64,000 nt of DNA, from NCBI GenBank assembly GCA_963806185.1, contig CAWDXE010000001.1:207512-271511 (forward strand). Direction: 5' to 3'. Each line of letters starts with the position of its first letter. Position 1 is the first letter of the stretch. A model generated the notes under the pieces. That model was not told the DNA's origin. It worked only from the letters and a program-made list of their open reading frames with translations, and did no database searches. Origin of the DNA: an uncultured candidate division Zixibacteria bacterium (GTDB taxonomy: Bacteria; Zixibacteria; MSB-5A5; GN15; FEB-12). Position numbers and translations under genes: made by a program. Of the stretch, positions 22,122 to 60,482 are shown one piece after another.

Positions 22122-22605
22122 TTTATGTGCCGGAGACTGTATAGATGTTTTTGTAAATAGACCAGTTATACGCGTTCGTGTCGGGGTTGGACGACTCCTG
22201 CCGATTCGCGCTTCGAAGCACATATTTGGGTAACCATTACCGGCGCTTCTGCGTCGCCGGAAAGAGTGACCGTGATTGCAGTGTTGACAAGCGGTAATCC
22301 CCATACCGCGATGGCAACGACCCTGAGCATTGGGGTCGTCGGGCCAGTTATTTATCTTTTGATTGTATTTGCAGTTCAGAATTACGTCCGATTACACGTG
22401 CAGAATTGGCATCGGAAACAGTGTTACTCCGCTCTGCCGGGCAGCGTCGTGATATCGCGCTGCAGGAAAGGAGGTATTTCGATGCAATGAGCCCGCTGAT
22501 CGGCGTTGCGGGTGGCACGAACGCCGACCGAGCTGAGGCAAGATGTAAGCGCTGTGCTGCAGAGCGGAGCGCTGATCGAACATTCAGGAATCGAAAGGAA
22601 TGAAA

Positions 22606-25600
22606 ATGATCAGGAAGCTTACAGTGTTGCTCGTCCTTAGCCTGATTGCGATCGCGTTTATCGCGGTTTCCATCGACGCTAAGTCGGTTTTCGACAAAGG
22701 CAAGCGTGTCGTCGACGAGCGGACCAATAAAGTCACGACCTTCAGTTTCACGGGCAAACGTCCTCTCGTGGCCCGTGGCGACGTACCCGAGCTCCCCACG
22801 CCGACCACGTCGAGCGCCGTCCGCTCATCGCTGGGCGTTCCGGCGACTGCCGGACAGTCGGCGTCTCCGGGATTTACGGTTGACGTATCGTATAATGACG
22901 ACCAGTACATTCCGTCGGCCGGTCACCAGGTCGAATGGCGGGGTACGTCGCCGTACGTGCAATTCGCGTATGGCAACGCCAATTCGAAGGGAGATATCAG
23001 CCGATTCGGCTATAACGTGTATGACCCGGTTCTGGGCAACTGGCCGCGCACGGCGGAAGTTGGCTGCGAGATTCAGGGTGCCGGCGATATCGGGACCCAG
23101 GTCGACATGTCGCTCAATTCGAGCGGATTTGTGGTGATTGGCGGCGTGGACGGAACGACCACGGCCACCCAGGACAACCACTTTTTCTTCCAGACGGCGA
23201 AGTTCAGCTGTACGTGGGGCACCGGCACGAAGATAGCGGCGAGCCAGTACAATGTGAACTTCCTGGCGTCGACAAACCTGCTGCACCACCCGCGCATAGA
23301 GTCGCAGACCTGGGCTGGTCAGACCTACACGCACGTGGTGGCGGTAGAGAGCAAAGTGCAGGATGTGACGACAGAGTTCCGTCGCAACACGCTGCATTAT
23401 TTCCGCAAGGTAGGGACGGCACAGGCCGGGACCTGGACCGGTCCGGTCACGCTTGACACGATCGCGTCGGTGTCGAATTCCCAGCGGGTCAACGCAGCCA
23501 GCATCGTGTCCTCGCGGGTGTCGCCGAAAGTGGCCGTCGTGTATGTAGTACCGACGGCTGAGGGTTTAGCCCATCAGCAGCGGTATGACGCGGACATCTG
23601 GTACACCGAGTCTGACTCGGTGGGCGCCACCTGGGGACCGCGGGTCAACATGACCGGTTTCCATCATGACGTCGCCTCCAAAACATCTTTTATGGGATCG
23701 GTCGGTTTCTACGATACGCAGGGTTTCCTGCACATCATTTTTGATGCTACCGACGTTCCTGCCGGCGCGTATGACCCGGCGTCCTCGTACTTCTGGGGAG
23801 ATTTCTCGAACAGCCTCTATCACTGGTCGAAGCGTGTGGCTGGGACGTACGCTGGCGGCACGATCGCCAAGATCCACAACTCTGAATGGGGCATTGATCT
23901 CAACACCGAGGTTTGCGGATTCGGCTCTCCGGGTACCGGATACACCGGGTTCTATTCGGTGGCCGAGTGCGACGGTCGTTTGTACGTCATATTCACCCAG
24001 TATCTTGACTATTTTGGTATTTTCACCGGCACGTCGCACATTGATGACTGCGCGGTGGGTGCGTCGGACCGTCTCTACGCCGCCAACGGCGAGGTGTGCG
24101 TCTGCGTCTCGTCCGATCGTGACGGTATGCTCTGGGATGCCGCACGTAACCTGACGAACACGTATACGCCTAACTGCGACTCGGCGGGCGGAACCGGCGG
24201 CGAATGCGCCAACGACACGCGGCCGACCGTATCGCGGTATGGAATGAACGTCAATTCGTTTGACACCAATGCGGTGCACGTGAACCTGACCTGGCCGGGG
24301 ACGGATCTGATCGTTCCGGCGGGTGGTACGGCCGATTCGATGTTCCTGCATGTCTTCTATACGGCCGACAAGTTCCCGGCGCCGGGCTGGCGCGATACGA
24401 CGACCTACAACCGGGCGACGCCGAACCCGCTCAAGTGGATGCGTCTGGCTTGTGTCGATCCTATCAGTGCGCCGCAGATTCGGGTGTCGCCGAACCTGAT
24501 CGCCTATCCGGAGTACACCAAGCATAATACGCAGAAGAGCGTGACGGTCACGGTGACCAACGAAGGGAACGAAGATCTGCATGTGACCACGATCGGGACG
24601 GACAAGGTCAGTCCGATCACGCCGAACTGGCTGGCCACCTCGGTGGGAAGCCTGACGGTCGCGGCGGGTCAATCGAACACAGGAACGTTTAACGTCCTGC
24701 TTAACGGTCCCGGCCTGATCAACAGCCCGGGGACGGTAGTGGCGCTGAACGGTGAAGTGTATTTGTTATCGGATGCACCGGCGCCGCGCGACTCGGTATC
24801 GATCTTTATCGAGAACTTCCTGGTGGCCGACACGGTGGTGGGTCTGGACTTTGACACGGTGGTGACCTGCGGCGTGGAGTTGATGGTGGACAACCATGGG
24901 AACATGGGCAGCCAGGGTCAGGGCAAGGTCAATCTGGACTTTGTCGGCTCGGGTGAGTGCGACACGTCGGGGGCGAAAACCTACCTGTATGACGGTGGAC
25001 CGATGTTGATTCGGAACCTGGGTGGTGGTTCGTTTGTGTACAGCAACGCGTTGTTTGAAGATGACTTCAGCACGGCCCAGTCGTTCAAGCCGTTGACGGG
25101 TCCGGTGCCGGCCAGTTTCGTGGGTCCGGCGGGCTCTGACGGTTATTTCACGGGCACTTTTGTGACTCGTGACACGGCGGTGGGCATGCAGTTGCGGTAC
25201 TACGGTCCGACGGACGGTGGCGACAACTGCGACTTCGTCATTCAGCAGATGAAGGTGTTCAAGATGACGCCGGGGACGCTGACGGGAATCACGGTTGGTC
25301 AGGGGATCGACTGGGATATTCGTTCGGACAGCGGTGCGCAGAACTCGTTCAATCGTTCGGGGGTAGCGACCGACTCGTCGTTTGTGTACCAGCGTGGTGT
25401 GGACACGGGCGCGGTGACCGGTTGCAATCCTGATTCGGGTCGTTATGGCGCCCAGGCGGTGCTGGGGATGTACCTGAAGTCGGACAGTGTGGCCAACAAT
25501 TGCGCCACGAGCAACATTTACGGTATGTACGCGCAGTACAATGACACGTTGTTCAAGTACGACACGTTGTCGGAGAATCTGGAAGCGAACTTCTACTGGA

Positions 25601-26046
25601 ACGAGATGGGGATCGCCGGCTATCGCAGTCGTGCGGGGGTTCGCGATTTCCATATGATCACGACCTACAAGTACAACACGAGTTTGAGCAACACCGACAC
25701 GTTGACCTGTTGGACGGTGATGACGTCCGTGCGGAACGGGACGTTGACCGATCTGGCGGCCAATGTGGCGGCGGCCAAGGCCTGGTTCTTTGCCAATCTG
25801 CGTCCGGGTTGCGGATCGTGTTGTGTCGGCAGCGTGGGTAATATTGATGGTGACATCACTGACGGCGTTGACGTTGGTGACCTGACCAAGTTGATCAACA
25901 ACCTGTTCATCACCTTTGAAGCGATAGCCTGTCCGGCGGAAGCCAACTGTGATGGCGATCCGCTGAACAGTGTCGACGTAGGTGATTTGACGGCACTGAT
26001 TAACAACCTGTTTATTACGTTCGCGCCGCTTCCTGCCTGTCAGTAA
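22606..26046 (+). CDS. secreted BNR/Asp-box repeat protein with Ig-like domain and C-terminal tandem dockerin-like (EF-hand) motifs, paralog A
   Basis: Signal peptide. Asp-box motifs 'TESDSVGATWG' and 'VSSDRDGMLWD'. An Ig-like segment 'KSVTVTVTNEGNEDLHVTTIG'. The C-terminus 'GNIDGDITDGVDVGDLTKLINNLFITF…NCDGDPLNSVDVGDLTALINNLFITF' is a duplicated dockerin-like calcium-binding segment. AAAGGA lies upstream. Confidence 0.75.
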   Translation: MIRKLTVLLVLSLIAIAFIAVSIDAKSVFDKGKRVVDERTNKVTTFSFTGKRPLVARGDVPELPTPTTSSAVRSSLGVPATAGQSASPGFTVDVSYNDDQYIPSAGHQVEWRGTSPYVQFAYGNANSKGDISRFGYNVYDPVLGNWPRTAEVGCEIQGAGDIGTQVDMSLNSSGFVVIGGVDGTTTATQDNHFFFQTAKFSCTWGTGTKIAASQYNVNFLASTNLLHHPRIESQTWAGQTYTHVVAVESKVQDVTTEFRRNTLHYFRKVGTAQAGTWTGPVTLDTIASVSNSQRVNAASIVSSRVSPKVAVVYVVPTAEGLAHQQRYDADIWYTESDSVGATWGPRVNMTGFHHDVASKTSFMGSVGFYDTQGFLHIIFDATDVPAGAYDPASSYFWGDFSNSLYHWSKRVAGTYAGGTIAKIHNSEWGIDLNTEVCGFGSPGTGYTGFYSVAECDGRLYVIFTQYLDYFGIFTGTSHIDDCAVGASDRLYAANGEVCVCVSSDRDGMLWDAARNLTNTYTPNCDSAGGTGGECANDTRPTVSRYGMNVNSFDTNAVHVNLTWPGTDLIVPAGGTADSMFLHVFYTADKFPAPGWRDTTTYNRATPNPLKWMRLACVDPISAPQIRVSPNLIAYPEYTKHNTQKSVTVTVTNEGNEDLHVTTIGTDKVSPITPNWLATSVGSLTVAAGQSNTGTFNVLLNGPGLINSPGTVVALNGEVYLLSDAPAPRDSVSIFIENFLVADTVVGLDFDTVVTCGVELMVDNHGNMGSQGQGKVNLDFVGSGECDTSGAKTYLYDGGPMLIRNLGGGSFVYSNALFEDDFSTAQSFKPLTGPVPASFVGPAGSDGYFTGTFVTRDTAVGMQLRYYGPTDGGDNCDFVIQQMKVFKMTPGTLTGITVGQGIDWDIRSDSGAQNSFNRSGVATDSSFVYQRGVDTGAVTGCNPDSGRYGAQAVLGMYLKSDSVANNCATSNIYGMYAQYNDTLFKYDTLSENLEANFYWNEMGIAGYRSRAGVRDFHMITTYKYNTSLSNTDTLTCWTVMTSVRNGTLTDLAANVAAAKAWFFANLRPGCGSCCVGSVGNIDGDITDGVDVGDLTKLINNLFITFEAIACPAEANCDGDPLNSVDVGDLTALINNLFITFAPLPACQ

Positions 26047-26120: not shown

Positions 26121-26623
26121 AAAAATCCAGAGGATCGGCATGCTTCCGGGTCGACGGGGGTCGGGCGTTCCCGGGCTGGAAGCGGATTCAGGACAAAATC
26201 GGTCAAGGGGAATTCCTTAGGCCACTAGTTGCTTGCAGGACAAGGGCCCCGCTGAAATTGGCATTGACAAAATCCGTCGCTGCATATACATTTCGTATGC
26301 TGGAGAGGTTTGCCTTAGGGACAGAGTATCCGGGCCCGGGCCTTCAACGCTACTTCGTCTCGAAGATAGATTTCTACAATTTATTGATCGTGCATACGTG
26401 AGAACATAACCGACAATCGACCTTGGACGATAAGGTCGCCTCCGTCGTAGTCACGATATCGGCGGGACAAGGAAAGGAGGTAATCTCAGCAACGAGTAAC
26501 ACGGCGTTCGGCCCTCGGCTTTGGGCCATCGGACGCGCATGCTGTGCGTGTAGAAATGGACACGCAGAGCATTGCTAGCTTCTTCTTTGGGACAATTATT
26601 TGGGAATCGAAAGGAGCACGGGA

Positions 26624-29600
26624 ATGATAAAGAGACTTCCCACGCTGTTTATTTGCGTTCTTGTTGCAGTGGCCTTCATTGCTGCTTCCGTGGATGCAAA
26701 ATCGAATTTTGACAAAGGCAAGCGTGTCGTCGACGAGCGGACCAATAAAGTCACGACCTTCAGCTTCTCCGGTAAGCGCCACCTGGTTGCTCAGGATGAC
26801 GTACCGGAGCTCCTCACGCCGACCACGTCGAGCGCCGTCCGCTCATCGTTGGGCGTTCCGGCGACTGCCGGACAGTCGGCGTCTCCGGGATTTACGGTTG
26901 ACGTATCGTATAATGACGACCAGTACATTCCGTCGGCCGGTCACCAGGTCGAATGGCGGGGTACGTCGCCGTACGTGCAATTCGCGTATGGCAACGCCAA
27001 TTCGAAGGGAGATATCAGCCGATTCGGCTATAACGTGTATGACCCGGTTCTGGGCAACTGGCCGCGCACGGCGGAAGTTGGCTGCGAGATTCAGGGTGCC
27101 GGCGATATCGGGACCCAGGTCGACATGTCGCTCAATTCGAGCGGATTTGTGGTGATTGGCGGCGTGGACGGAACGACCACGGCCACCCAGGACAACCACT
27201 TTTTCTTCCAGACGGCGAAGTTCAGCTGTACGTGGGGCACCGGCACGAAGATAGCGGCGAGCCAGTACAATGTGAACTTTTTGACCACGGCCAACCTGCT
27301 GCATCACCCGCGCATAGAGTCGCAGACCTGGGCTGGTCAGACCTACACGCACGTGGTGGCGGTAGAGAGCAAAGTGACGGACCTGACGACAGAGTTCCGT
27401 CGCAACACGCTGCATTATTTCCGCAAGGTAGGGACGGCACAGGCCGGGACCTGGACCGGTCCGGTCACGCTTGACACGATCGCGTCGTCGTCCAACTCTC
27501 AGCGCGTGAACTGCGCCAGTATCGTAGCCTCCCGCACCTCACCTAAGGTGGCGGTGGTCTATACCGTACCGACGGCCGAAGGTTTGGCGCATCTGCAACG
27601 GTACGACAACGATGTCTACTTTACGGAATCAGATTCCGTGGGCGCGACCTGGGGCGCGCGCGTCAATATGACCAACTACACGCACACGACAGCATCATTT
27701 ACGGCAAACCTCGGTGCTTTTGGTCTGTACGATTCGCAGGGGTTCCTGCACATTTTGTTCAGCGCACAGCCGGTTGATGCTCTTCCGTATGCTCCCACGT
27801 CGTCCTTCTTCTGGGGAGATTTCTCCTGCTCGCTGTTCCACTGGTCGAAGCGTGTGGCCGGGTCGAATGCCGGCGGCACGATCGCCAAGGTACACAATGC
27901 CGAGTGGGGCATCGACGTTAACACCGAAGTCTGCGGATTCCCGAGCCCGGGTTCTTCTTATCTTGGGTTCTATTCGCTGGCCGAGTGCGACGGTCGTTTG
28001 TATGCGGTGTTCAGCCAGTACAACGACTACTATGGCAACTTCGGCACGTCGCACATTGACGACTGCGCGGTGGGTGCGTCGGACCGTCTCTACGCCGCCA
28101 ACGGTGAAGTCTGCGTAACCGTATCATCCGATCGTGACGGTATGCTCTGGGATGCTGTTCGTAACCTGACGAACACGTATACGCCTAACTGCGACTCGGC
28201 GGGCGGAACCGGCGGCGAATGCGCCAACGACACGCGCGCCACGGTATCGCGGTACGGAATGAACGTCAATTCGTTTGACACCAATGCGGTGCACGTGAAC
28301 CTGACCTGGCCGGGGACGGATCTGATCGTTCCGGCGGGTGGTACGGCCGATTCGATGTTCCTGCATGTCTTCTATACGGCCGACAAGTTCCCGGCGCCGG
28401 GCTGGCGCGATACGACGACCTACAACCGGGCGACGCCGAACCCGCTCAAGTGGATGCGTCTGGCTTGTGTCGATCCTATCAGTGCGCCGCAGATTCGGGT
28501 GTCGCCGAATCTGATCGCCTATCCGGAGTACACCAGGCACAATACGCAGAAGAGCGTGACGGTCACGGTGACCAACGAAGGGAACGAAGATCTGCATGTG
28601 ACCACGATCGGGACGGACAAGGTCAGTCCGATCACGCCGAACTGGCTGGCCACCTCGGTGGGAAGCCTGACGGTCGCGGCGGGTCAATCGAACACAGGAA
28701 CGTTTAACGTCCTGCTTAACGGTCCCGGCCTGATCAACAGCCCGGGGACGGTAGTGGCGCTGAACGGTGAAGTGTATTTGTTATCGGATGCACCGGCGCC
28801 GCGCGACTCGGTATCGATCTTTATCGAGAACTTCCTGGTGGCCGACACGGTGGTGGGTCTGGACTTTGACACGGTGGTGACCTGCGGCGTGGAGTTGATG
28901 GTGGACAACCATGGGAACATGGGCAGCCAGGGTCAGGGCAAGGTCAATCTGGACTTTGTCGGCTCGGGTGAGTGCGACACGTCGGGGGCGGACACCTACC
29001 TGTATGACGGTGGACCGATGTTGATTCGGAACCTGGGTGGTGGTTCGTTTGTGTACAGCAACGCGTTGTTTGAAGATGACTTCAGCACGGCCCAGTCGTT
29101 CAAGCCGTTGACGGGTCCGGTGCCGGCCAGTTTCGTGGGTCCGGCGGGCTCTGACGGTTATTTCACGGGCACCTTTGTGACTCGTGACACGGCGGTGGGC
29201 ATGCAGTTGCGGTACTACGGTCCGACGGACGGTGGCGACAACTGCGACTTCGTCATTCAGCAGATGAAGGTGTTCAAGATGACGCCGGGGACGCTGACGG
29301 GAATCACGGTTGGTCAGGGGATCGACTGGGACATTCGTTCGGACAGCGGTGCGCAGAACTCGTTCAATCGTTCGGGGGTAGCGACCGACTCGTCGTTTGT
29401 GTACCAGCGTGGTGTGGACACGGGCGCGGTGACCGGTTGCAATCCTGATTCGGGTCGTTATGGCGCCCAGGCGGTGCTGGGGATGTACCTGAAGTCGGAC
29501 AGTGTGGCCAACAATTGCGCCACGAGCAACATTTACGGTATGTACGCGCAGTACAATGACACGTTGTTCAAGTACGACACGTTGTCGGAGAATCTGGAAG

Positions 29601-30061
29601 CGAACTTCTACTGGAACGAGATGGGGATCGCCGGCTATCGCAGTCGTGCGGGGGTTCGCGATTTCCATATGATCACGACCTACAAGTACAACACGAGTTT
29701 GAGCAACACCGACACGTTGACCTGTTGGACGGTGATGACGTCCGTGCGGAACGGGACGTTGACCGATCTGGCGGCCAATGTGGCGGCGGCCAAGGCCTGG
29801 TTCTTTGCTAATCTGCGTCCGGGTTGCGGATCGTGTTGTGTCGGCAGCGTGGGTAATATTGATGGTGACATCACTGACGGCGTTGACGTTGGTGACCTGA
29901 CCAAGTTGATCAACAACCTGTTCATCACCTTTGAAGCGATAGCCTGTCCGGCGGAAGCCAACTGTGATGGCGATCCGCTGAACAGTGTCGACGTAGGTGA
30001 TTTGACGGCACTGATTAACAACCTGTTTATTACGTTCGCGCCGCTTCCTGCCTGTCAGTAA
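26624..30061 (+). CDS. secreted BNR/Asp-box repeat protein with Ig-like domain and C-terminal tandem dockerin-like motifs, paralog B
   Basis: Same architecture as 22606..26046. It is near-identical at both ends and diverged in the middle (aa ~230–500). AAAGGAG lies 8 nt upstream of ATG 26624. Confidence 0.75.
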   Translation: MIKRLPTLFICVLVAVAFIAASVDAKSNFDKGKRVVDERTNKVTTFSFSGKRHLVAQDDVPELLTPTTSSAVRSSLGVPATAGQSASPGFTVDVSYNDDQYIPSAGHQVEWRGTSPYVQFAYGNANSKGDISRFGYNVYDPVLGNWPRTAEVGCEIQGAGDIGTQVDMSLNSSGFVVIGGVDGTTTATQDNHFFFQTAKFSCTWGTGTKIAASQYNVNFLTTANLLHHPRIESQTWAGQTYTHVVAVESKVTDLTTEFRRNTLHYFRKVGTAQAGTWTGPVTLDTIASSSNSQRVNCASIVASRTSPKVAVVYTVPTAEGLAHLQRYDNDVYFTESDSVGATWGARVNMTNYTHTTASFTANLGAFGLYDSQGFLHILFSAQPVDALPYAPTSSFFWGDFSCSLFHWSKRVAGSNAGGTIAKVHNAEWGIDVNTEVCGFPSPGSSYLGFYSLAECDGRLYAVFSQYNDYYGNFGTSHIDDCAVGASDRLYAANGEVCVTVSSDRDGMLWDAVRNLTNTYTPNCDSAGGTGGECANDTRATVSRYGMNVNSFDTNAVHVNLTWPGTDLIVPAGGTADSMFLHVFYTADKFPAPGWRDTTTYNRATPNPLKWMRLACVDPISAPQIRVSPNLIAYPEYTRHNTQKSVTVTVTNEGNEDLHVTTIGTDKVSPITPNWLATSVGSLTVAAGQSNTGTFNVLLNGPGLINSPGTVVALNGEVYLLSDAPAPRDSVSIFIENFLVADTVVGLDFDTVVTCGVELMVDNHGNMGSQGQGKVNLDFVGSGECDTSGADTYLYDGGPMLIRNLGGGSFVYSNALFEDDFSTAQSFKPLTGPVPASFVGPAGSDGYFTGTFVTRDTAVGMQLRYYGPTDGGDNCDFVIQQMKVFKMTPGTLTGITVGQGIDWDIRSDSGAQNSFNRSGVATDSSFVYQRGVDTGAVTGCNPDSGRYGAQAVLGMYLKSDSVANNCATSNIYGMYAQYNDTLFKYDTLSENLEANFYWNEMGIAGYRSRAGVRDFHMITTYKYNTSLSNTDTLTCWTVMTSVRNGTLTDLAANVAAAKAWFFANLRPGCGSCCVGSVGNIDGDITDGVDVGDLTKLINNLFITFEAIACPAEANCDGDPLNSVDVGDLTALINNLFITFAPLPACQ

Positions 30062-30153: not shown

Positions 30154-31545
30154 TCAAACCCTCACAGCAGCGCGCTCGACGGTGACGGCCCCCACAAGGG
30201 AATCCACCCAGAAATAGCTTTCCTGGTGAAACGGCAGGTATACGAGTTGCCAAGCCGTGGGCATGAACTTGGCGGCCAATAACGTCGACTGTCTCTCGAT
30301 GGCGGCCCGGGTGAGCAGGGCATCGGCCAGATTGATCGCCTCATCATATGACACCGTCACGGGCGGGAGCTTGGACGGTACCTCGTCGGAGAGTCCCCGC
30401 GAGATCAAGTCAGCGCCGGAGGCACGACGGACCAGTCGGAAGGCGGCTTCAACGTTGGGCATCTCGAAGGCCGGGAGCATCAGCCACTCCGGCGGATATT
30501 GATAGCCGAAGAATCGCATGATTTCCTTCCGATCGAGATCGCGAATCTGAAATGCCCAAAACGGGAGATACGAATCACCGGTGAAGCCCGGCAGGCAGTG
30601 AGCCGAAGTGACTGTGCCGGCACAGTTGCCGAGAAGAGTCCAGCGACCGCAGCTCGCGCAATGGTACACGAGTGAAACGGTTGATTCAAAATCGGTTCCG
30701 CAGGTAGCACAGCAAAGGGATTCAACAATGACAGTCTGGACCGGGGTATTCACGGTGGGCGGTTCCGGCCCGGATACATTTTGGTCAGGTTGTTCAGCGC
30801 ACGAGACCACATTGCCGGTAACACCATCGACGATAAGTCGAAAGGCACTGGACGAATAGCACTCGGCCACCATATACGGAAAGTGGATTAGTGAAAAGAC
30901 AGGATTGAGAAGTTCAGTCCGATTGACGCCGGAACCGGGCGAGTCCAGCGAATCGAGCCGATCCAGACCGGTTCGGATTCTCGTGGCCGCCTCCTCCCTC
31001 GGGCGAACGACCGACAAGACATCAAACGCGGCTTCCCGATACGGCTCCGCAAAGGGAAACAGCTTAAGGTATGCGGCGCGCAAACCGAGCGTATCAGGAA
31101 AGTCAGCCGATCCCGCACCGGCGGCTATGGCGTTTACGTAGGGAGTCAGGCTGACCGTGCGAACGTTTTGAGTCTCCTCCACGTCAGCGGATGGATCGAT
31201 CTCGTTGGCGTGGATGCGCGTGACACTGGAGTTACGGATCTTGAGAAGCGAAGCGTCGATTTTCCAGTACGGGTAGTACACCCATTTCATCAGGAGGTCA
31301 TGGCCCGTGAGGGGCAAGCCGTGTTCCTTGAGATAGCGATCAATCAGAAACCGGAGTTGTGATTCGGTCCTGGTGACGCGCGCCACCCAAGCCGCTGCCC
31401 CCTGGGGCATGACAATGCGCAGGGAGGCGCCACAATGGGCACAGCGGGTCGCGCGGATGGAATCCAGGAATTCCAATTCAGCGCCGCAGCCGGGGCAGGT
31501 GCAACCGAAAACGAGTCCGGCGTCAGGCCGACGTTGAATCGCCAT
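30154..31545 (-). CDS. zinc-ribbon domain protein, hypothetical (two CxxC…CxxC ribbons each followed by an aromatic-rich domain)
   Basis: '[12 protein letters not shown]…RCAHCGASL' and '[10 protein letters not shown]…HCASCGRW'. No known catalytic motif. Its first 200 nt overlap the 3' end of the SPFH gene in another frame, so the true start is uncertain or a frameshift is present. Confidence 0.5.
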
Positions 31546-32657
31546 TGTTCACCGACGTTGCCACAATTTCCACAGAACTTGGAGCCGGGGATCAACTCGG
31601 CTTTGCAATTGGGGCAATGCACCTTTTCATCCAGGCGATGACCGCAATAGAGGCAGAAATTCGCCTCGGTAGGAATTTCCCGCTGACAAGCGAGGCAGCG
31701 ATTCTGAGCCACCATCGGGTGGCCGCAGCGGTAGCAATACCGTGATTGTTCCGGAGTATCGGTATGGCACTTGGGACAGGTGACGGTGGCTACCGGCTCG
31801 CGCCTGAGTTCTGTCTGATCGGGCGAGAAGACCTTGGTCATGAGACTAGGCAGCATGACACCGACTCCAGCCGCCATGCCGATACCCGCACCGGTGCCTG
31901 CGGCGCCACCGGTAGCCCCCAGTCCTTTCGCCATCTCGTATTTCATGAACTTGTCGAGGTCACCTACCGCCTCAATGCCGGAGCGCTGGTCGATCATCTG
32001 CCCTACTTCATCCGGCGGAGTGATCGAGGAGATGAAGAAATCGACGAGGGTCAGGCCGTACTTTTCGAATTCGACTCGAACGATGTCTTTGAAGTTTTCG
32101 GCCAGTTCAGTATACTTGGCCGGCAATTCGAGAAGGGTATCGAGCGTCTCGCCAAGCAGGTCGTTCATCCGGGCGACGATGACGTCGCGGAGGTAGTCCT
32201 GTATGTCCGACGTCGTGTACTTCGCCTGACGGCCGACGATGGAATTCAGGAACAGCATCGGTTGAGTGATGCGCATGGTGAAGGCTCCGTGGCCACGGAG
32301 ACGAACCAGGCCGAGTTTACTGTCCTTGAAAGTGACAGGCAGTTTGGTCCCCCATTTGAGTTCGGTAAATGTCTTGAGGTTAACGAAGTAGACCTCGGCC
32401 CGAAAGGGCGAGGTGAAGCCAAAGGGGAACGAAAGCAAGCGAGTGAGTATTGGGATGTTCAAGGACGAAAGGGTATGGCGTCCAGTGGTGAAGGAATCGC
32501 AGGCGTGGCCGTCCTTGAAGAAGATCGCCATCTGACTGTCGCGGACGATGAGTTGTGCGCCGAGTTTGAAATCGGCTGATCCCTCCTGCGGCAGACGATA
32601 GATCATTTCTTTGCCGGTCGGATCGACCCATTCGATGACTTCGATCAAAAGTGACAT
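31344..32657 (-). CDS. SPFH/band-7 domain protein with C-terminal tandem zinc ribbons (YdjI-like)
   Basis: The start [10 protein letters not shown] is preceded by GGAG. An SPFH region (…[32 protein letters not shown]…) and a Gly-rich segment are followed by 'CPKCH…YCYRCG', 'CLACQ…FCLYCG' and 'CPNCK…FCGNCG'. The last ~65 aa are a low-complexity P/A-rich tail suggesting read-through after a frameshift. Confidence 0.65.
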
Positions 32658-32822
32658 GGCTGCTCCTTCAATACTGTAACTGCTTGCTATATGGCCGTTT
32701 TCGGCAATTCGCGGCGATATTAGACTTGCCTCGGCGACGGTCCGGGGGTGTCCTTTTCGCTTGTGGCATATGCAGGTTGGGCCTGTAGAATTGGGAAACT
32801 TCTGACCGAGGTAGCGGGTTAA

Positions 32823-33428
32823 GTGGGGAGTGAAAGCGTACAATCTTGTAACAGAAGATACTACGAATGGAACGATCAGATCGAGAATCTTCAGAAGATG
32901 TATCACGACCTCCTGGTCGGCGTCGGTGAGGATGTCAGTCGCGAAGGGCTGGTCAAGACCCCCGAACGGGCAGCCCGGGCAATAGAGTTTCTGACCCGTG
33001 GCTACACGCAAGATGTCGAAGAGATCATTAACGACGCCTATTTCCAGTCGGATACTGACGAGATGATCCTGGTAAAGGATATCGAATTGTACTCGTTGTG
33101 CGAACATCATCTTCTGCCCTTCATCGGAAAGTGTCATGTGGCGTACATGCCCATGGGGCGAATCATCGGTCTGTCGAAGATTGCGCGGATTGTGGACGTC
33201 TTCGCGCGACGTCTTCAGGTTCAGGAACGTCTGACCAAGCAGATAGCAGACACCTTGATGACCCATCTGGGGGCACGCGGCGTTGCCGTGGTGATCGAGG
33301 CTCAGCATTTGTGCATGATGATGCGAGGTGTGGAAAAACAGAATTCAGTGATGAAGACCTCGTGTTTGCTGGGCGCATTTCGCAATTCCCCGTCGACCCG
33401 AGCGGAGTTCCTCAGTCTGATCAAGTAG
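32823..33428 (+). CDS. folE: GTP cyclohydrolase I (FolE)
   Basis: '[51 protein letters not shown]…[15 protein letters not shown]' matches the conserved FolE active-site region. GTG start at 32823; an alternative ATG lies at 32898. Confidence 0.8.
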
Positions 33429-33463
33429 GAGTTCGACAACCGTCGCGTTGACACGAAAGCATC

Positions 33464-34714
33464 ATGCTGTTTACACTGAGCAAGCGGTTCGAATTGTCCT
33501 CATCGCGGCGGCTATTTCTGCCTGATCGGTCGAGTGAACAAAACGCCCGCCTCTACGGCGGCAGCGCCGCCGGTCAATGGGGGCAAGGGTGCAATTACGT
33601 GGTCAGCCCGGTGTTCAGCGGACCGATCGATCAGGCGACGGGCATGTTGATGAACGTATCGGAGGTGAAGCAGCGAGTCAACAGCCTGCTGAACGAACGG
33701 TACGATCACCGGTATCTGAATATGGATACCACACCATTTGACAGCATCCCCCCCACGCCGGAACTGGTCGCGCGGCAGATTCTACAGGAGATTCAACCGA
33801 TATTCGCCGACAGCCCGGCAAGGCCGGTAGCGGTACACCTGATGGAATCACCAGAGAGCGGGGCTACCGCCTATCTCGACGGGCGGATCGAGCGTGATAT
33901 TTGGCTTGATTTCTCGGCGGCGCGGCGGACTTGGTCACCTCATTTGTCCAGAGAGGAAAATGAAAAGCTGTTCGGTATATCGGCCCGGCCCAATGGCCAC
34001 GGTCACAACTATCGCCTCAGGATGGTGTTGAGCGGCACGTGGCACGAGGCGGAAGGAATCGTCATTGAGCAGCAGGAGATTGACAGTGCGGTGGCCTCGA
34101 TCCGAGAGAAATTCGATCATCAACACTTGAATCTCGACGTACCGGAGTTGAAGGGGCAACCGGTGACGACGGAGACGCTGGCCCGACTGATCTATCGGCT
34201 GGCGCATTTTGCTCTGCCGGTGGTTCGCGTGCAATTGTACGAATTACCCTGGTTCTTTGTGGAGCATCGGTCGGACAACTCGTTCAGCCTGGGGTATGAG
34301 AATTCATTCAGTGCGGCACACCGACTTCACTCGAATTACCTGTCGGAGGAAGCTAACCGGACAGTGTACGGGAAGTGCAACAATCCGAACGGCCATGGGC
34401 ATCACTATCGAGTGGAGATGACGATCGGCGGGCCGTTTGACGAACGGTCGGGGACACTTTTTGACCTGGGGCGGGCCGCGAGCGGCTTCGAGCGAGTGAT
34501 TACACCATGGCGGAACAGACATCTCGACGTGGAGACCGAAGATTTCAAAAGTGTACCCTCAACGGGCGAGAACATCGCTGAACGGCTATGGGAGAAGCTG
34601 GACGGCGCATACGGTGGTCGGCTGACCCGGCTGCGGTTGTGGGAGACCATGAACAATCGATTCACGCTTCGGAATTACGGCCTGCCGGCGCCATCAATCA
34701 TGCAAAATATCTAG
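33464..34714 (+). CDS. triple-domain 6-pyruvoyl-tetrahydropterin synthase (PTPS/QueD T-fold) fusion protein
   Basis: Three successive ~130-aa T-fold units. The second carries 'ARPNGHGHNYRL', the third 'CNNPNGHGHHYRVEM' (Cys-x5-HGH zinc motif), and the first is degenerate. Immediately downstream of folE. Confidence 0.7.
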   Translation: MLFTLSKRFELSSSRRLFLPDRSSEQNARLYGGSAAGQWGQGCNYVVSPVFSGPIDQATGMLMNVSEVKQRVNSLLNERYDHRYLNMDTTPFDSIPPTPELVARQILQEIQPIFADSPARPVAVHLMESPESGATAYLDGRIERDIWLDFSAARRTWSPHLSREENEKLFGISARPNGHGHNYRLRMVLSGTWHEAEGIVIEQQEIDSAVASIREKFDHQHLNLDVPELKGQPVTTETLARLIYRLAHFALPVVRVQLYELPWFFVEHRSDNSFSLGYENSFSAAHRLHSNYLSEEANRTVYGKCNNPNGHGHHYRVEMTIGGPFDERSGTLFDLGRAASGFERVITPWRNRHLDVETEDFKSVPSTGENIAERLWEKLDGAYGGRLTRLRLWETMNNRFTLRNYGLPAPSIMQNI

Positions 34715-34733
34715 CGGCCAAGGATATTCACAC

Positions 34734-35429
34734 GTGCAGCGAATACTCATCACGGGAGCGAGCAAAGGGATCGGGAGGGCAATCGCCGAGCGACTGGCGT
34801 CGCCGGGACGGGAACTGCTGATCCACGGACGGGATGCAGGTCGTCTCGAGGAAACGGGACGCCTGGTTGAGAAGCACGGCGGGACGGCCACCATGATTCT
34901 GTGCGATTTGTCTCGTCCGAGCGAGACGGTCAGGTTGGTGGAAGCAGTTAACGGCCGACCGGTGCATTGCCTTGTCAATAATGCCGGTTTGGGTCATACC
35001 GGACCGCTTGAAAAGATAACTCCGGAGCAATGGCAGGCCATGTTTGACGTCAATGTCACGGGGCCATTCCTCCTGGCACAGGGGCTGGTGGGGCAGATGC
35101 CCAGAGGGAGCCTGATCATCAACATCATTTCGGCGGCGGCGAAGAACATCTTCCCGGGCTGGGGCGCGTATACCATGACCAAATGCGCGCTCGACGGTTT
35201 CGCCAAGGTGATGCGAGAGGAGCTTCGCCCGCGAGGTATACGGGTAGTCAATCTGTATCCGGGAGCCACTGACACCGACATCTGGCGGGACGTAGACGGG
35301 CCGTTTGTCCGAGACAAGATGATGGCAGCCCGCAACACGGCTGACGCGGTCGCGTTTGTGCTTGACCGGCCCGAAGGGGTACTGGTCGAGGACATTACAC
35401 TTTCGAATCTTGGGGCGATTACGGAATAG
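34734..35429 (+). CDS. short-chain dehydrogenase/reductase (SDR), candidate sepiapterin-reductase-like pterin reductase
   Basis: 'ILITGASKGIGRAIAERLA' Rossmann motif and a catalytic 'YTMTKCAL' (YxxxK). The pterin-reductase role is inferred only from adjacency to folE and PTPS. Confidence 0.65.
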   Translation: MQRILITGASKGIGRAIAERLASPGRELLIHGRDAGRLEETGRLVEKHGGTATMILCDLSRPSETVRLVEAVNGRPVHCLVNNAGLGHTGPLEKITPEQWQAMFDVNVTGPFLLAQGLVGQMPRGSLIINIISAAAKNIFPGWGAYTMTKCALDGFAKVMREELRPRGIRVVNLYPGATDTDIWRDVDGPFVRDKMMAARNTADAVAFVLDRPEGVLVEDITLSNLGAITE

Positions 35430-35613
35430 CCGTACCACATAGCTTTCCCCTGCATGGATGAGCTGTAGTGACTACACCCGCGCTCTCTGGTCTCATCCTC
35501 CATCCGGGGATTCTTAAGAGAACTTCTCAAAATCAAATTCCGGGCGCCGGGCGTCAAGAATCCGGCACGGGATTCGGAGGTGGGCTAACTGCGTGAGTGG
35601 CTTGCTATTCGGC

Positions 35614-57436: not shown

Positions 57437-58985
57437 TCAATTGGAATGGAATGTACTCAGTGCGGGGGAATGCAGCCCGTAGGCAGCCGGGATCTGGTTC
57501 GCGAACTGGAGAATCGGCTCAGGGAACAGACCAAACAGAACGACGCCCACCAAGCCAACCATGACCACGATCATCGCGGCACGGGAAGGCCGGAATGCAG
57601 CGGTGTCGGCGGTGGGATTGAAGTACATAGCGCGAATGACTCCGGCATAGTAGTAGAGGCCGAAAACCGAAGTGAGCAGGCCAATGCCGACCACCCAGTA
57701 GAGCCAGGAGAAGCTCGGGCCTACGCCGGCCATTTTGATGGCCGCGGCGAAAACGTAGTATTTCGCGAGGAAACCGGCCAGGGGCGGTATGCCGGTCAGC
57801 GACAGGAGAAAGACGCTGAGGGTACCGGCCAGGAAAGGAGAGCGGCGCGACAGGCCGTTGTAAGCGTCGATTTCGCATGAGCCGGTCTTGTCTTCGATGA
57901 TGGCTACGATGGCAAAGGCACCCATGTTGGCGAACAGGTAAGCGAACATGTAAAAGCCGACCGAAGCGAGGCCGAGCTCGTTGACGGCGATCATGCCGAT
58001 CATGACGTAACCGGCCTGGGCAATCGACGAATAGGCCAGCATACGCTTGATGTTGGTCTGGCGAATCGCCAGTACATTGCCGATCACCAGTGCGGCATCG
58101 CCAGAGCGCCGGCAATGATTCCCCAATCGTTGGGGCTCATGACCGGATCGTAGAAGGCGAACAATCCGTTGACGATGATCTTGGCGAACGCGACCAGCCC
58201 GGCGGCCTTGGAACCGACCGACAGGAAAGACGCGACCGGGGTCGGCGCACCTTCATAGACATCCGGCGCCCACTGGTGGAAGGGCGGCAGCGCCAGTTTG
58301 AAGCCGAGGCCGGCCAGAATGGTCGCGGTTGCCAGAATCAGCACCACGCCGATATCACCGCCATTGCCCAATTGGGTGATGGCGATATTGACTTTCATCT
58401 GCAGAATGTCGGTCGTGCCGGACAGACCGTACAGGAACGACAGACCGTAGAGCAGCACGGCCGAGGAGAAGGCGCCGATGATCAGATACTTGATGCCGGC
58501 TTCGACGGAAAGGCGATCATCCTTGAAGAAGGCGGCCAGCACGAACAGCGGGATGGTGGTCAGTTCAAGGCCGATATACAGCGACAGCAATTCGTTGCTT
58601 GAGCGCCAGAAACATCATGCCGACGGTCGAGAGCAGGATCAGGCCGAAGAACTCGCCGCGATGGTTGATGATCTTTTCGCTGAACGATGCCGAACGACGA
58701 GCCGATGGCCATGAAGGCGGCGCCGAGGAAGATGATTTTGAAGAACAGGGCGAGCGGGTCGTTGAAGAACATCGTCCCGAAGCCAGACCGAAACCGTAGA
58801 CACCGGCGCAAGAGAGCCCACAGAGAAGCCGGCGACAACCAGGCCGACCATGGCGAGGTAGGCGACGCTGTGGCCGACTTACGGCTGGTGAACAGGTCGT
58901 AGGTGAACACCAGGAGCGCCCAGCCGAAGAGAATGATCTCCGGGGCCATCAGCCAAAGGTTATAGTCGGGCAGTGTCGTTTCCAT
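57437..58985 (-). pseudogene. nuoN: NADH-quinone oxidoreductase subunit N (nuoN), split into ≥3 overlapping reading frames by frameshifts
   Basis: The pieces 58560..58985, 58084..58590 and 57437..58126 are colinear with NuoN/ND2. Each piece ends in a short nonsense tail. Confidence 0.7.
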
Positions 58986-58989
58986 ACGT

Positions 58990-60477
<1,488 letters not shown>

Positions 60478-60482
60478 ATGTC

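What the first reader, a model, noticed from the sequence alone, without database searches (positions are those of the whole stretch)
32823..35429. Pterin biosynthesis cluster: folE + triple-PTPS-domain fusion + SDR reductase (BH4-like pathway candidate)
GTP cyclohydrolase I (folE) is followed by a 416-aa protein made of three consecutive PTPS/QueD-type T-fold units. Two of these units carry recognisable HGH zinc motifs ('NGHGHNYRL', 'CNNPNGHGHHYRVEM').

Next comes an SDR with the GASKGIG and YxxxK motifs. GTP cyclohydrolase I → PTPS → sepiapterin reductase is the established tetrahydrobiopterin route.

A single polypeptide with three T-fold domains is unusual: PTPS and QueD normally assemble from ~120–140-aa monomers. 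It may represent a covalently fused trimer/hexamer building block with one degenerate and two catalytic units.

The product could be BH4 or a glycosylated pterin rather than queuosine or folate.
Basis: partly seen in the sequence, partly recalled or inferred. Interest (0 to 1): 0.6.

Follow-up and report, generated by a model that had tools for sequence, protein, structure and literature searches.

The report
Biopterin operon with triple-fused PTPS enzyme
Three adjacent genes most likely make a tetrahydrobiopterin-type cofactor from GTP, and the middle enzyme is three copies of a normally separate subunit fused into one chain, of which only the last copy keeps a complete catalytic site.

Summary
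folE (32823-33428), a 416-aa protein made of three PTPS T-fold units (33464-34714) and a 231-aa SDR (34734-35429) lie on the + strand with gaps of 35 and 19 nt.

All three units are closest to animal 6-pyruvoyltetrahydropterin synthase, not to QueD. Only unit 3 keeps the full catalytic set: three Zn histidines, the CxxxxxHGH biopterin-type signature and the anchoring Glu. These are 100% conserved in 190 homologues. Unit 2 keeps HGH but has Arg for the first His and Ala/Ser for the Cys. Unit 1 has lost the metal site. Units 1 and 2 keep the trans-acting Asp-His dyad that unit 3 has lost.

AlphaFold gives one rigid body (pLDDT 94, pTM 0.91) with 4-residue hairpins joining the units, as expected for a single-chain pseudo-trimeric ring.

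Relatives occur in 429 species genomes (Zixibacteria, Verrucomicrobiota, Acidobacteriota). folE and the orthologous SDR flank the gene there. A long phenylalanine hydroxylase, pterin-4a-carbinolamine dehydratase, HPPD and homogentisate dioxygenase are often adjacent.

The biopterin reading is well supported. The "two catalytic units" reading is not. Two-unit bacterial PTPS is known; I found no published description of this three-unit form. It is a new variant of a known kind and is annotated in databases as QueD.

The parts
32763..32791 (+). Weak sigma-70-like promoter match upstream of folE (GTGGCA-17-TAGAAT), in the 160-nt divergent intergenic region
   Evidence: 9 of 12 matches. Four such sites were found against 1.8 expected in shuffles, so this is only suggestive.
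32823..33428 (+). folE, GTP cyclohydrolase I (type IA); makes 7,8-dihydroneopterin triphosphate. The true start codon may lie downstream of 32823.
   Evidence: PF01227 252 bits; TIGR00063 251 bits (cutoff 182). Homologues align from residue ~19-23 onwards. The exact 201-aa product is not in the protein collection.
33464..34714 (+). Trimodular PTPS: one 416-aa chain made of three PTPS-type T-fold units
   Evidence: PF01242, three stretches, 205 bits. AlphaFold pLDDT 94.3, pTM 0.91; more than 120 full-length homologues of 404-434 aa.
33464..33877 (+). Unit 1 (aa 1-138). The metal site and catalytic Cys are lost. It keeps Asp81-His82, Thr98 and Glu100.
   Evidence: closest to human/rat PTPS (E 3e-14); the positions equivalent to rat His23/Cys42/His48/His50 are variable, while D81/H82 are conserved in 190/190. 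It is the only unit with a weak TIGR03112 'PTPS-related domain' match.
33884..34279 (+). Unit 2 (aa 141-272). It keeps HGH (H179, H181), Asp218-His219, Thr235-Thr236-Glu237 and Glu260. It has Arg154 in place of the first Zn His and Ser173 (Ala in most homologues) in place of the catalytic Cys.
   Evidence: closest to rat PTPS (E 2.7e-17). R154 190/190, Ala/Ser 190/190, H179/H181 190/190, D218 188/190, H219 187/190, E260 190/190.
34280..34681 (+). Unit 3 (aa 273-406). Complete PTPS-II catalytic set: His286, Cys305-x5-His311-Gly-His313, Thr367, Glu369 and Glu394. The Asp-His dyad is lost (R350, N351). His353, two residues later, is conserved.
   Evidence: E 2.5e-25 to human PTPS 3i2b; 40-44% identity to human and rat PTPS. 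Foldseek best match human PTPS 3i2b, target-normalised TM 0.92, rmsd 1.1 over 132 columns; catalytic residues 190/190, dyad positions variable, H353 186/190.
34734..35429 (+). Classical SDR reductase, candidate sepiapterin reductase (6-pyruvoyl-tetrahydropterin -> tetrahydrobiopterin)
   Evidence: adh_short 159 bits; an orthologue at 46-55% identity lies directly downstream of the trimodular gene in about 55 of 80 loci; a profile of 26 orthologues has Chlorobium tepidum sepiapterin reductase 2bd0 as best PDB hit (151.6 bits, full length), with Ser/Tyr/Lys aligned and the invariant W184 aligned to Trp196 of that enzyme.

Best explanation
The three genes form an operon for de novo synthesis of a tetrahydrobiopterin-type cofactor from GTP.

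Proposed steps:
1. FolE makes dihydroneopterin triphosphate.
2. The 416-aa enzyme converts it to 6-pyruvoyl-tetrahydropterin, using the Zn/Cys centre of its third unit.
3. The SDR reduces the side-chain carbonyls with NAD(P)H to give tetrahydrobiopterin. The stereoisomer is not determined.

The cofactor most likely serves a pterin-dependent aromatic amino acid hydroxylase in Phe/Tyr catabolism. In relatives that enzyme is encoded next to the operon. It is not in this window.

The synthase is a covalently fused pseudo-trimer. Beta-hairpins join strand 4 of one unit to strand 1 of the next, so one chain closes the 12-stranded T-fold ring that normally takes three subunits.

The units have specialised. 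Unit 3 carries the only canonical catalytic centre. Units 1 and 2 act as scaffold and keep the Asp-His dyad, which in PTPS and QueD reaches into the active site of a subunit in the opposite ring.

Two chains would therefore stack head to head to complete the sites. My favoured register puts unit 2 on the dyad axis and pairs unit 1 with unit 3 of the partner.

Shown: gene order, domain composition, residue conservation, the confident single-body fold, and conserved genomic context.

Inferred: the chemistry, ring closure, dimerisation and its register, and the client enzyme in this particular genome.

The confidence given (0.72) is for the pathway assignment together with the single-catalytic-unit pseudo-trimer. 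The dimer register alone is about 0.4-0.5.
For: Family assignments.

Origin of the units: each is closest to animal PTPS rather than to QueD. E-values are 3e-14, 3e-17 and 2.5e-25, against about 1e-4 for QueD.

Signature: unit 3 carries CxxxxxHGH, which PMC5041015 gives as diagnostic for PTPS-II (biopterin). CxxxHGH marks QueD and ExxHGH marks PTPS-III.

Conservation over 190 distinct homologues:
- Unit 3: His/Cys/His/His/Glu/Glu all 100%, dyad lost.
- Unit 2: Arg and Ala/Ser substitutions 100%, HGH 100%, dyad 99%.
- Unit 1: metal site variable, dyad 100%.

Structure:
- AlphaFold pLDDT 94.3 and pTM 0.91, with 4-residue links at 137-142 and 269-274.
- PMC9894224 states that ring contacts are beta1-beta4' of adjacent subunits, and that His71'' of the QueD dyad comes from the opposite ring.
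- The family starts at strand 1 (M1, L3, T4, R8 and F9 nearly invariant). It ends a few residues after the invariant ETxNNRFxLR. This fits closure of the barrel.

Context:
- folE upstream in 73/80 loci and an orthologous SDR downstream in about 55/80.
- Zixibacteria-type loci with full flanks: 15/15 folE, 15/15 SDR, 12/15 hydroxylase, 8/15 PCD.
- Verrucomicrobiota loci with full flanks: 23/23 folE, 22/23 HGD, 20/23 HPPD, 14/23 hydroxylase.
- Neighbour identities: Biopterin_H 101 bits; NF010657 780 bits; 7vgm phenylalanine hydroxylase E 2.6e-163; Pterin_4a 106 bits; acetoacetate-CoA ligase 931 bits.

SDR: the family profile's best PDB match is C. tepidum sepiapterin reductase.
Against: - No enzyme assay exists for any member.
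- The window holds no hydroxylase, PCD, HPPD or HGD, so the client enzyme in this genome is unknown.
- The SDR's lead over unrelated SDRs in the PDB search is only 2 bits (151.6 against 149.7). It falls below the cutoff of its best NCBIfam model (197 against 234). Phe99 of the Chlorobium enzyme is not conserved.
- About a third of related loci, mostly Verrucomicrobiota, lack an adjacent SDR.
- I could not read model coordinates. Ring closure rests on pTM, hairpin lengths and conserved termini.
- The dimer register is not determined. Every register leaves something unexplained. My favoured one does not explain why His353 of unit 3 is 98% conserved.
- NCBIfam's QueD model also scores above its cutoff (117.5 against 89.25, summed over three units).
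Confidence: 0.72

Rival explanations
1. The 416-aa protein is a QueD (6-carboxy-tetrahydropterin synthase) feeding queuosine/preQ0 synthesis. This is what NCBI and JGI annotation pipelines call its homologues.
For: Source names read '6-carboxytetrahydropterin synthase'. TIGR03367 QueD scores 117.5 bits against a cutoff of 89.25. QueD and PTPS use the same substrate, and the family is described as catalytically promiscuous (PMC5041015).
Against: - The QueD score is a sum over three units. Taken singly, each unit matches E. coli QueD only at about 1e-4, against 1e-14 to 1e-25 for animal PTPS.
- No unit has the CxxxHGH signature.
- No queC/queE-like gene is among the conserved neighbours in 80 loci or among the window ORFs scanned.
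- The conserved neighbours are an SDR, a pterin-dependent hydroxylase and PCD.
Confidence: 0.06
2. The pathway makes a pterin other than plain tetrahydrobiopterin. Examples are a glycosylated biopterin as in cyanobacteria and green sulfur bacteria, or a side-chain variant. Alternatively it feeds folate synthesis as a PTPS-III-type bypass of FolB.
For: The SDR's closest solved relative makes the L-threo isomer, to my recollection, so stereochemistry is open. Known bacterial biopterin producers often glycosylate it (own knowledge). The conserved Cys-less pocket of unit 2 could carry a different chemistry.
Against: - No glycosyltransferase recurs next to the operon in 80 loci.
- No ExxHGH (PTPS-III) motif occurs in any unit.
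- No folB/folK/folP was found among the window ORFs scanned.
- A hydroxylase plus PCD recycling context points to a free tetrahydropterin cofactor.
Confidence: 0.15
3. One reading: two of the three units (2 and 3) are catalytic and one is degenerate.
For: Unit 2 keeps HGH, the Asp-His dyad, Thr-Thr-Glu and the anchoring Glu at 99-100%. Its pocket is therefore under selection and probably binds a pterin and perhaps a metal. In QueD2 the third metal ligand is a dyad His from the opposite ring rather than the N-terminal His (PMC9894224), so a two-His unit can still bind zinc. Other trimodular subfamilies, such as P0142 and P0143, do have two Cx5HGH units.
Against: In this family the catalytic Cys is Ala or Ser in 190/190 and the first Zn His is Arg in 190/190. 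To my recollection, the Cys42Ala mutant of rat PTPS is inactive and was used to trap substrate (Ploom et al. 1999, not checked here).
Confidence: 0.12

Closest known systems
Animal 6-pyruvoyltetrahydropterin synthase (PTPS-II class; rat 1b66/1gtq, human 3i2b)
   Same: Same fold: unit 3 superposes on human PTPS with target-normalised TM 0.92 and rmsd 1.1 A. Unit 3 is 40-44% identical. It has the same three Zn histidines, the same CxxxxxHGH Cys and the same pterin-anchoring Glu. The substrate-supplying FolE is upstream and a reductase is downstream.
   Different: The animal enzyme is a homohexamer of ~140-aa subunits with six identical sites. Here three units are fused in one 416-aa chain. Only one unit keeps the Zn/Cys centre, and that unit has lost its own Asp-His dyad.
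Bimodular bacterial PTPS (bPTPS-II of Synechococcus PCC 7942; Kong et al. 2006, as described in PMC5041015)
   Same: It is a multi-unit PTPS-II enzyme shown to be the real biopterin-pathway PTPS in a bacterium. In the representative library, many 260-292-aa two-unit proteins align to residues ~148-402, that is to units 2+3. They show the same pattern: a Cys-less N-unit and a Cx5HGH C-unit.
   Different: This protein has an extra N-terminal unit with no metal site. Unit 2 has Arg where the two-unit proteins inspected keep the first His. I could not retrieve the Synechococcus sequence itself, so the link to the two-unit proteins seen here is by architecture and signature only.
E. coli QueD (PTPS-I; 4ntk/3qn0)
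   Same: Same T-fold, same substrate, same HGH zinc motif. The dyad His reaches across from the opposite ring (PMC9894224).
   Different: QueD has CxxxHGH and clusters with que genes. Sequence similarity to each unit is weak (E about 1e-4). QueD is ~120 aa and forms a homohexamer.
Chlorobium tepidum sepiapterin reductase (2bd0)
   Same: It is the best PDB match of the SDR family profile, over the full length (151.6 bits). The Ser145/Tyr158/Lys162 catalytic residues are aligned, and its Trp196 aligns with the family-invariant W184.
   Different: It scores only 2 bits above unrelated SDRs. Phe99 is not conserved. The window protein reads YTMTKC where both the Chlorobium enzyme and the family consensus read YCMSKF.
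Urate oxidase and GTP cyclohydrolase IB (two T-fold units in one chain)
   Same: Both are precedents for fusing T-fold units in one polypeptide. They appear as weak Foldseek matches.
   Different: They have two units per chain and different ring sizes. The query-normalised TM score is at most 0.31. No solved chain covers more than one unit of this protein in the same geometry.

Membership tests
PTPS-II (biopterin-pathway 6-pyruvoyltetrahydropterin synthase, COG0720) | PTPS/T-fold domain (PF01242, TIGR00039) | tested here: met
   PF01242 205 bits in three stretches. TIGR00039 130.4 bits against a cutoff of 125.5.
PTPS-II (biopterin-pathway 6-pyruvoyltetrahydropterin synthase, COG0720) | Signature CxxxxxHGH (PMC5041015) plus an N-terminal third Zn His | tested here: met
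   Unit 3 has H286 and C305-NNPNG-H311-G-H313, all 190/190 conserved. Units 1 and 2 do not meet this feature.
PTPS-II (biopterin-pathway 6-pyruvoyltetrahydropterin synthase, COG0720) | Intersubunit Cys-Asp-His triad (Asp88/His89 in rat numbering) | tested here: inconclusive
   The catalytic unit 3 lacks the dyad (R350/N351, variable). Units 1 and 2 keep it at 99-100%. Whether they deliver it in trans needs a dimer structure.
PTPS-II (biopterin-pathway 6-pyruvoyltetrahydropterin synthase, COG0720) | Homohexamer of ~140-aa single-domain subunits | tested here: not met
   The protein is a 416-aa chain of three units. It is a fused variant, not the canonical quaternary form.
PTPS-II (biopterin-pathway 6-pyruvoyltetrahydropterin synthase, COG0720) | Co-occurrence or clustering with sepiapterin reductase and folE | tested here: met
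   folE upstream in 73/80 loci and an orthologous SDR downstream in about 55/80.
PTPS-II (biopterin-pathway 6-pyruvoyltetrahydropterin synthase, COG0720) | Conversion of dihydroneopterin triphosphate to 6-pyruvoyl-tetrahydropterin | not testable with these tools
   Needs an enzyme assay.
QueD / PTPS-I (6-carboxy-tetrahydropterin synthase) | Signature CxxxHGH | tested here: not met
   No unit has Cys four residues before HGH: unit 2 reads SARPNGHGH and unit 3 reads CNNPNGHGH.
QueD / PTPS-I (6-carboxy-tetrahydropterin synthase) | Clustering with queC/queE | tested here: not met
   No que-like gene family recurs among neighbours in 80 loci, and none is among the window ORFs scanned. The rest of the genome could not be searched.
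QueD / PTPS-I (6-carboxy-tetrahydropterin synthase) | NCBIfam TIGR03367 above cutoff | tested here: met
   117.5 bits against 89.25, but summed over three stretches. This explains the database name and does not discriminate between the families.
PTPS-III (FolB bypass in folate synthesis) | Signature ExxHGH | tested here: not met
   The residue three positions before HGH is Pro in units 2 and 3.
Bimodular bPTPS-II (Kong et al. 2006) | Two PTPS modules in one polypeptide, with a catalytic C-terminal module | tested here: not met
   This protein has three modules. Units 2+3 align to 260-292-aa two-unit proteins, so it is an extended relative.
Sepiapterin reductase (bacterial, Chlorobium type) | Classical SDR with TGxxxGIG, a Ser-Tyr-Lys catalytic set and specific similarity to the characterised enzyme | tested here: inconclusive
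   The motifs are present. The family profile's top PDB hit is 2bd0, but by only 2 bits. The best NCBIfam model, NF005672, scores 197 against a cutoff of 234.
Sepiapterin reductase (bacterial, Chlorobium type) | NADPH-dependent reduction of 6-pyruvoyl-tetrahydropterin or sepiapterin | not testable with these tools
   Needs an enzyme assay.
GTP cyclohydrolase I (FolE, type IA) | TIGR00063 / NF006825 above cutoff | tested here: met
   TIGR00063 250.9 bits against 181.6. NF006825 269.2 bits against 174.

The most novel reading that the evidence does not exclude
The trimodular synthase is a single-chain T-fold ring that dimerises into a pseudo-D3 barrel. Only two of its six pockets are canonical PTPS sites.

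The two fully conserved but Cys-less unit-2 pockets (Arg154, His179, His181, Asp218-His219, Glu260) would then have a new role. Candidates are an allosteric or product-binding pterin site, or a second chemical step.

This would be a natural case of subunit fusion followed by division of labour within one oligomeric ring. It would also mean that biopterin-dependent Phe catabolism is widespread in abundant uncultured soil and sediment bacteria, including Candidatus Udaeobacter and Zixibacteria.
Probability: 0.3. Interest if true: 0.6.

Novelty: new variant of a known kind. Interest (0 to 1): 0.45.

Why it matters
- **Annotation.** A family found in at least 429 species genomes is labelled QueD in public databases. 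It should probably be read as the biopterin-pathway PTPS.
- **Distribution.** Bacterial biopterin synthesis was estimated at about 50 genomes (PMC5041015). Here the operon is linked to Phe/Tyr catabolism in Zixibacteria, Verrucomicrobiota (including Candidatus Udaeobacter) and Acidobacteriota.
- **Protein evolution.** A homo-oligomeric ring has become one chain. Its copies then lost complementary halves of the active site. This is a clean natural system for asking how many sites a T-fold barrel needs and what the leftover pockets do.
- **Engineering.** A compact three-gene set could be useful for making biopterin in heterologous hosts.

Tried and rejected
- Looking up the contig of the exact protein returned nothing. 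Its nearest relatives are Zixibacteria at 52-55% identity.
- The afdb50 fold library was unavailable, so I could not list UniProt proteins sharing the three-unit geometry.
- Model coordinates are not exposed. I could not measure ring closure or inter-unit distances.
- Three papers were not held: Miles et al. 2014, Phillips et al. 2012 and Ploom et al. 1999. The roles of rat residues rest partly on my memory, on PMC9894224, and on the title of Burgisser et al. 1995 as listed in PMC2229834.
- A search for Cys42/His89 in the paper library found nothing relevant.
- tblastn against plasmids found no match.
- Rfam found no riboswitch or other RNA family in the window. The promoter and terminator scans were near background.
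- The literature search found no paper linking tetrahydrobiopterin with Zixibacteria, Udaeobacter or Chthoniobacter among the 15 top-ranked papers. It found no description of a three-unit PTPS.
- I considered and rejected QueD, PTPS-III and a glycosylated-pterin pathway (see the rival explanations).
- My automatic motif classification of the representatives mislabels HGHGH runs as Cx3HGH. I did not use it for counts.
Full report
**What is there.**

Three ORFs lie on the + strand: 32823-33428 (201 aa), 33464-34714 (416 aa) and 34734-35429 (231 aa). The gaps are 35 and 19 nt, so they look like one operon.

- The first is GTP cyclohydrolase I: PF01227 252 bits, TIGR00063 251 bits against a cutoff of 182.
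- The second matches Pfam PTPS (PF01242) in three separate stretches, 205 bits.
- The third is a classical short-chain dehydrogenase: adh_short 159 bits.

The neighbours are unrelated. Upstream, on the minus strand, is an SPFH/Band-7 protein with zinc ribbons (31344-32663). Downstream, from 35686, are genes that look by eye like a branched-chain amino-acid ABC transporter (livKHMGF-like; not HMM-tested).

No RNA family was found in the window. Promoter and terminator scans were near background.

**Anatomy of the 416-aa protein.**

Searched one at a time against PDB sequences, every unit is closest to animal 6-pyruvoyltetrahydropterin synthase:

| Unit | Best PTPS hit | E. coli QueD |
|---|---|---|
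| 1 | E 3e-14 | about 1e-4 |
| 2 | E 3e-17 | about 1e-4 |
| 3 | E 2.5e-25 | about 1e-4 |

The units are 24-30% identical to each other and 30%, 36% and 44% identical to rat PTPS. This points to an old triplication of a PTPS-II-type gene.

I mapped the rat residues through those alignments. I then tallied them over 190 distinct full-length homologues. The roles of the rat residues come from my memory of Nar 1994, Burgisser 1995 and Ploom 1999.

| Rat residue | Unit 1 | Unit 2 | Unit 3 |
|---|---|---|---|
| His23 (Zn) | variable | Arg154, 100% | His286, 100% |
| Cys42 (base) | variable | Ala/Ser, 100% | Cys305, 100% |
| His48, His50 (Zn) | variable | His179, His181, 100% | His311, His313, 100% |
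| Asp88-His89 (dyad) | Asp81-His82, 100% | Asp218-His219, 99% | variable (R350, N351 here) |
| Thr105/Thr106/Glu107 | Thr98 99%, Glu100 93% | Thr235-Thr236-Glu237, 99-100% | Thr367 99%, Glu369 100% |
| Glu133 (pterin anchor) | 57% | Glu260, 100% | Glu394, 100% |

Unit 3 also has a 98%-conserved His353 two residues after the lost dyad.

Unit 3's C-x5-HGH is the motif that PMC5041015 gives as diagnostic for the biopterin-pathway class PTPS-II. CxxxHGH marks QueD and ExxHGH marks PTPS-III.

So there is one canonical catalytic unit, not two.

**Structure.**

AlphaFold2, run with a 30-sequence alignment, gives pLDDT 94.3 and pTM 0.91. [quoted passage not shown] The last strand of each unit connects to the first strand of the next through only 4 residues (137-142 and 269-274).

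PMC9894224 states that ring contacts in T-fold enzymes are between beta1 and beta4' of adjacent subunits. A hairpin at that position reproduces the trimer contact covalently.

The family begins at strand 1. It ends just after the invariant ETxNNRFxLR strand. Both facts fit closure of the barrel between the two termini.

Foldseek against the PDB superposes one unit on human PTPS (target-normalised TM 0.92, rmsd 1.1 A). No solved chain covers more than a third of the model.

I could not read coordinates, so ring closure is inferred rather than measured.

**Distribution and relatives.**

- The protein collection holds more than 120 full-length homologues of 404-434 aa at about 50% identity. Where named, they are called 6-carboxytetrahydropterin synthase.
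- Among one genome per species, 429 genomes encode a relative. The best 80 are Zixibacteria/GN15-type MAGs, Verrucomicrobiota (Chthoniobacterales, Candidatus Udaeobacter), Acidobacteriota and one Krumholzibacteriia.
- An exhaustive search of 1.84 billion representatives found 89 clusters at E <= 1e-30. These include about ten 400-421-aa forms and about 25 shorter three-unit forms of 354-389 aa.
- That search also found about 60 two-unit proteins of 260-292 aa. These align to residues ~148-402, that is to units 2+3.
- The two-unit proteins I inspected have a Cys-less N-unit and a Cx5HGH C-unit.
- A two-unit PTPS is the experimentally validated biopterin enzyme of Synechococcus PCC 7942 (Kong 2006, as summarised in PMC5041015). 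The protein here therefore looks like that core plus an extra metal-free N-terminal unit.
- A cultured bacterium, Ardenticatena maritima, has a 418-aa three-unit relative at 40% identity.

**Genomic context.**

In the 80 fetched loci, folE lies upstream on the same strand in 73. In 70 of these it is within 180 nt. An SDR 46-55% identical to the window's lies directly downstream in about 55.

Loci with full 6-kb flanks:

| Group | n | folE | SDR | Long hydroxylase | PCD | HPPD | HGD |
|---|---|---|---|---|---|---|---|
| Zixibacteria-type | 15 | 15 | 15 | 12 | 8 | 4 | 4 |
| Verrucomicrobiota | 23 | 23 | 9 | 14 | 0 | 20 | 22 |

The neighbours were identified as follows:

- Long hydroxylase: Biopterin_H 101 bits. 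NCBIfam 'aromatic amino acid hydroxylase' NF010657 780 bits against a cutoff of 346. E 2.6e-163 over the full length to the 592-aa phenylalanine hydroxylase 7vgm.
- Pterin-4a-carbinolamine dehydratase: Pterin_4a 106 bits.
- 4-hydroxyphenylpyruvate dioxygenase and homogentisate 1,2-dioxygenase domains.
- Acetoacetate-CoA ligase 931 bits, a fumarylacetoacetate-hydrolase-family protein and a HisC-type aminotransferase.

Together this is a Phe/Tyr catabolic cluster that carries its own cofactor supply and recycling.

None of these client genes is in the present window. The function here is therefore inferred by orthology.

**The reductase.**

The window SDR alone ranks C. tepidum sepiapterin reductase (2bd0) tenth among PDB sequences.

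A profile of 26 operon-linked orthologues ranks it first, over the full length (151.6 bits). The Ser145/Tyr158/Lys162 catalytic residues are aligned, and its Trp196 aligns with the family-invariant Trp184.

The margin over unrelated SDRs is only 2 bits. The best NCBIfam model (NF005672) is below its cutoff. The sepiapterin-reductase role therefore rests mainly on the conserved operon.

**How it most likely works.**

FolE makes dihydroneopterin triphosphate. Unit 3 of the synthase binds it at its Zn centre and uses Cys305 as the base, giving 6-pyruvoyl-tetrahydropterin. The SDR reduces this to a tetrahydrobiopterin.

In PTPS and QueD the Asp-His partners of the catalytic Cys come from a subunit in the opposite ring. 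Evidence for this is 'His71''' in PMC9894224 and the phrase 'intersubunit catalytic triad' in the title of Burgisser 1995. Two chains should therefore stack head to head.

In a pseudo-D3 dimer, one unit pairs with its own copy and the other two swap partners. The most economical register puts unit 2 opposite unit 2 and unit 1 opposite unit 3.

- The only lost dyad (unit 3) then faces the only dead pocket (unit 1).
- Unit 1's invariant dyad completes the only canonical site.
- Unit 2's dyad serves unit 2's conserved two-His pocket.

This register is an inference, at roughly 0.4-0.5 confidence, and it does not explain the conserved His353.

The unit-2 pocket is strongly conserved yet naturally carries the equivalent of the inactive Cys42Ala mutation. 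It may be a binding or regulatory site.

**Rivals.**

- QueD is disfavoured by the signature, the per-unit similarities and the context. Its NCBIfam score passes only as a sum over three units.
- PTPS-III is excluded by the motif.
- A glycosylated or otherwise modified pterin cannot be excluded, but no glycosyltransferase recurs nearby.
- The 'two catalytic units' reading conflicts with the invariant loss of Cys and of the first His in unit 2.

**Novelty.**

The pathway and a two-unit bacterial PTPS are known. I found no description of the three-unit form or of its complementary degeneration. Databases name it as QueD. I class it as a new variant of a known kind, of moderate interest.

Noticed in passing
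window 57437-62602 (- strand): The complex I antiporter-like subunit genes (nuoL/M/N) are broken into seven partial ORFs. Those with a Pfam match (five of the seven) each match only part of Proton_antipo_M or Proton_antipo_N. This points to frameshifts, from assembly indels or pseudogenisation. The three pterin genes are intact.
   Followed up: partly
window 22600-26046 and 26600-30061 (+ strand): Two tandem paralogous secreted proteins of about 1150 aa have near-identical N-termini and no Pfam match. By eye, the second ends in dockerin-like Asp-rich repeats.
   Followed up: partly
L001, L010, L016, L030, L045, L050 and about 35 other related loci (e.g. L030:3103-4917, - strand): A long (~600 aa) aromatic amino acid hydroxylase lies beside the operon in relatives. 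It scores 780 bits on NF010657 and matches PDB 7vgm over its full length (E 2.6e-163). It carries a ~270-aa C-terminal extension beyond the usual bacterial phenylalanine hydroxylase. It is often accompanied by PCD, HPPD, HGD, acetoacetate-CoA ligase and an FAH-family hydrolase.
   Followed up: partly
proteins P0142, P0143, P0146, P0147 (364-387 aa) and P0130 (Ardenticatena maritima, 418 aa): Other three-unit COG0720 subfamilies show different degeneration patterns. Some have two Cx5HGH units and a DxxH in place of the Asp-His dyad. Ardenticatena has a QueD-like Cx3HGH in unit 2 and Cx5HGH in unit 3, which hints at possible bifunctionality.
   Followed up: partly
proteins P0138, P0152, P0159 and about 60 other representatives of 260-292 aa: Two-unit PTPS proteins are common in metagenomes, for example in Omnitrophota. 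With hairpin-linked units they could not build a three-unit ring, so their quaternary structure is an open question.
   Followed up: no
L016:7930-8661 (- strand): A methanethiol S-methyltransferase MddA (382 bits) lies between the SDR and the PCD gene in one Zixibacteria-type locus.
   Followed up: no
window 34728-35438 (- strand) and 31344-33308 (- strand): Long antisense or over-extended ORFs overlap the SDR and folE. One is 236 aa. The other is a 654-aa reading whose real gene is the 439-aa SPFH protein ending at 32663. They are artefacts of the high G+C content, not genes.
   Followed up: yes
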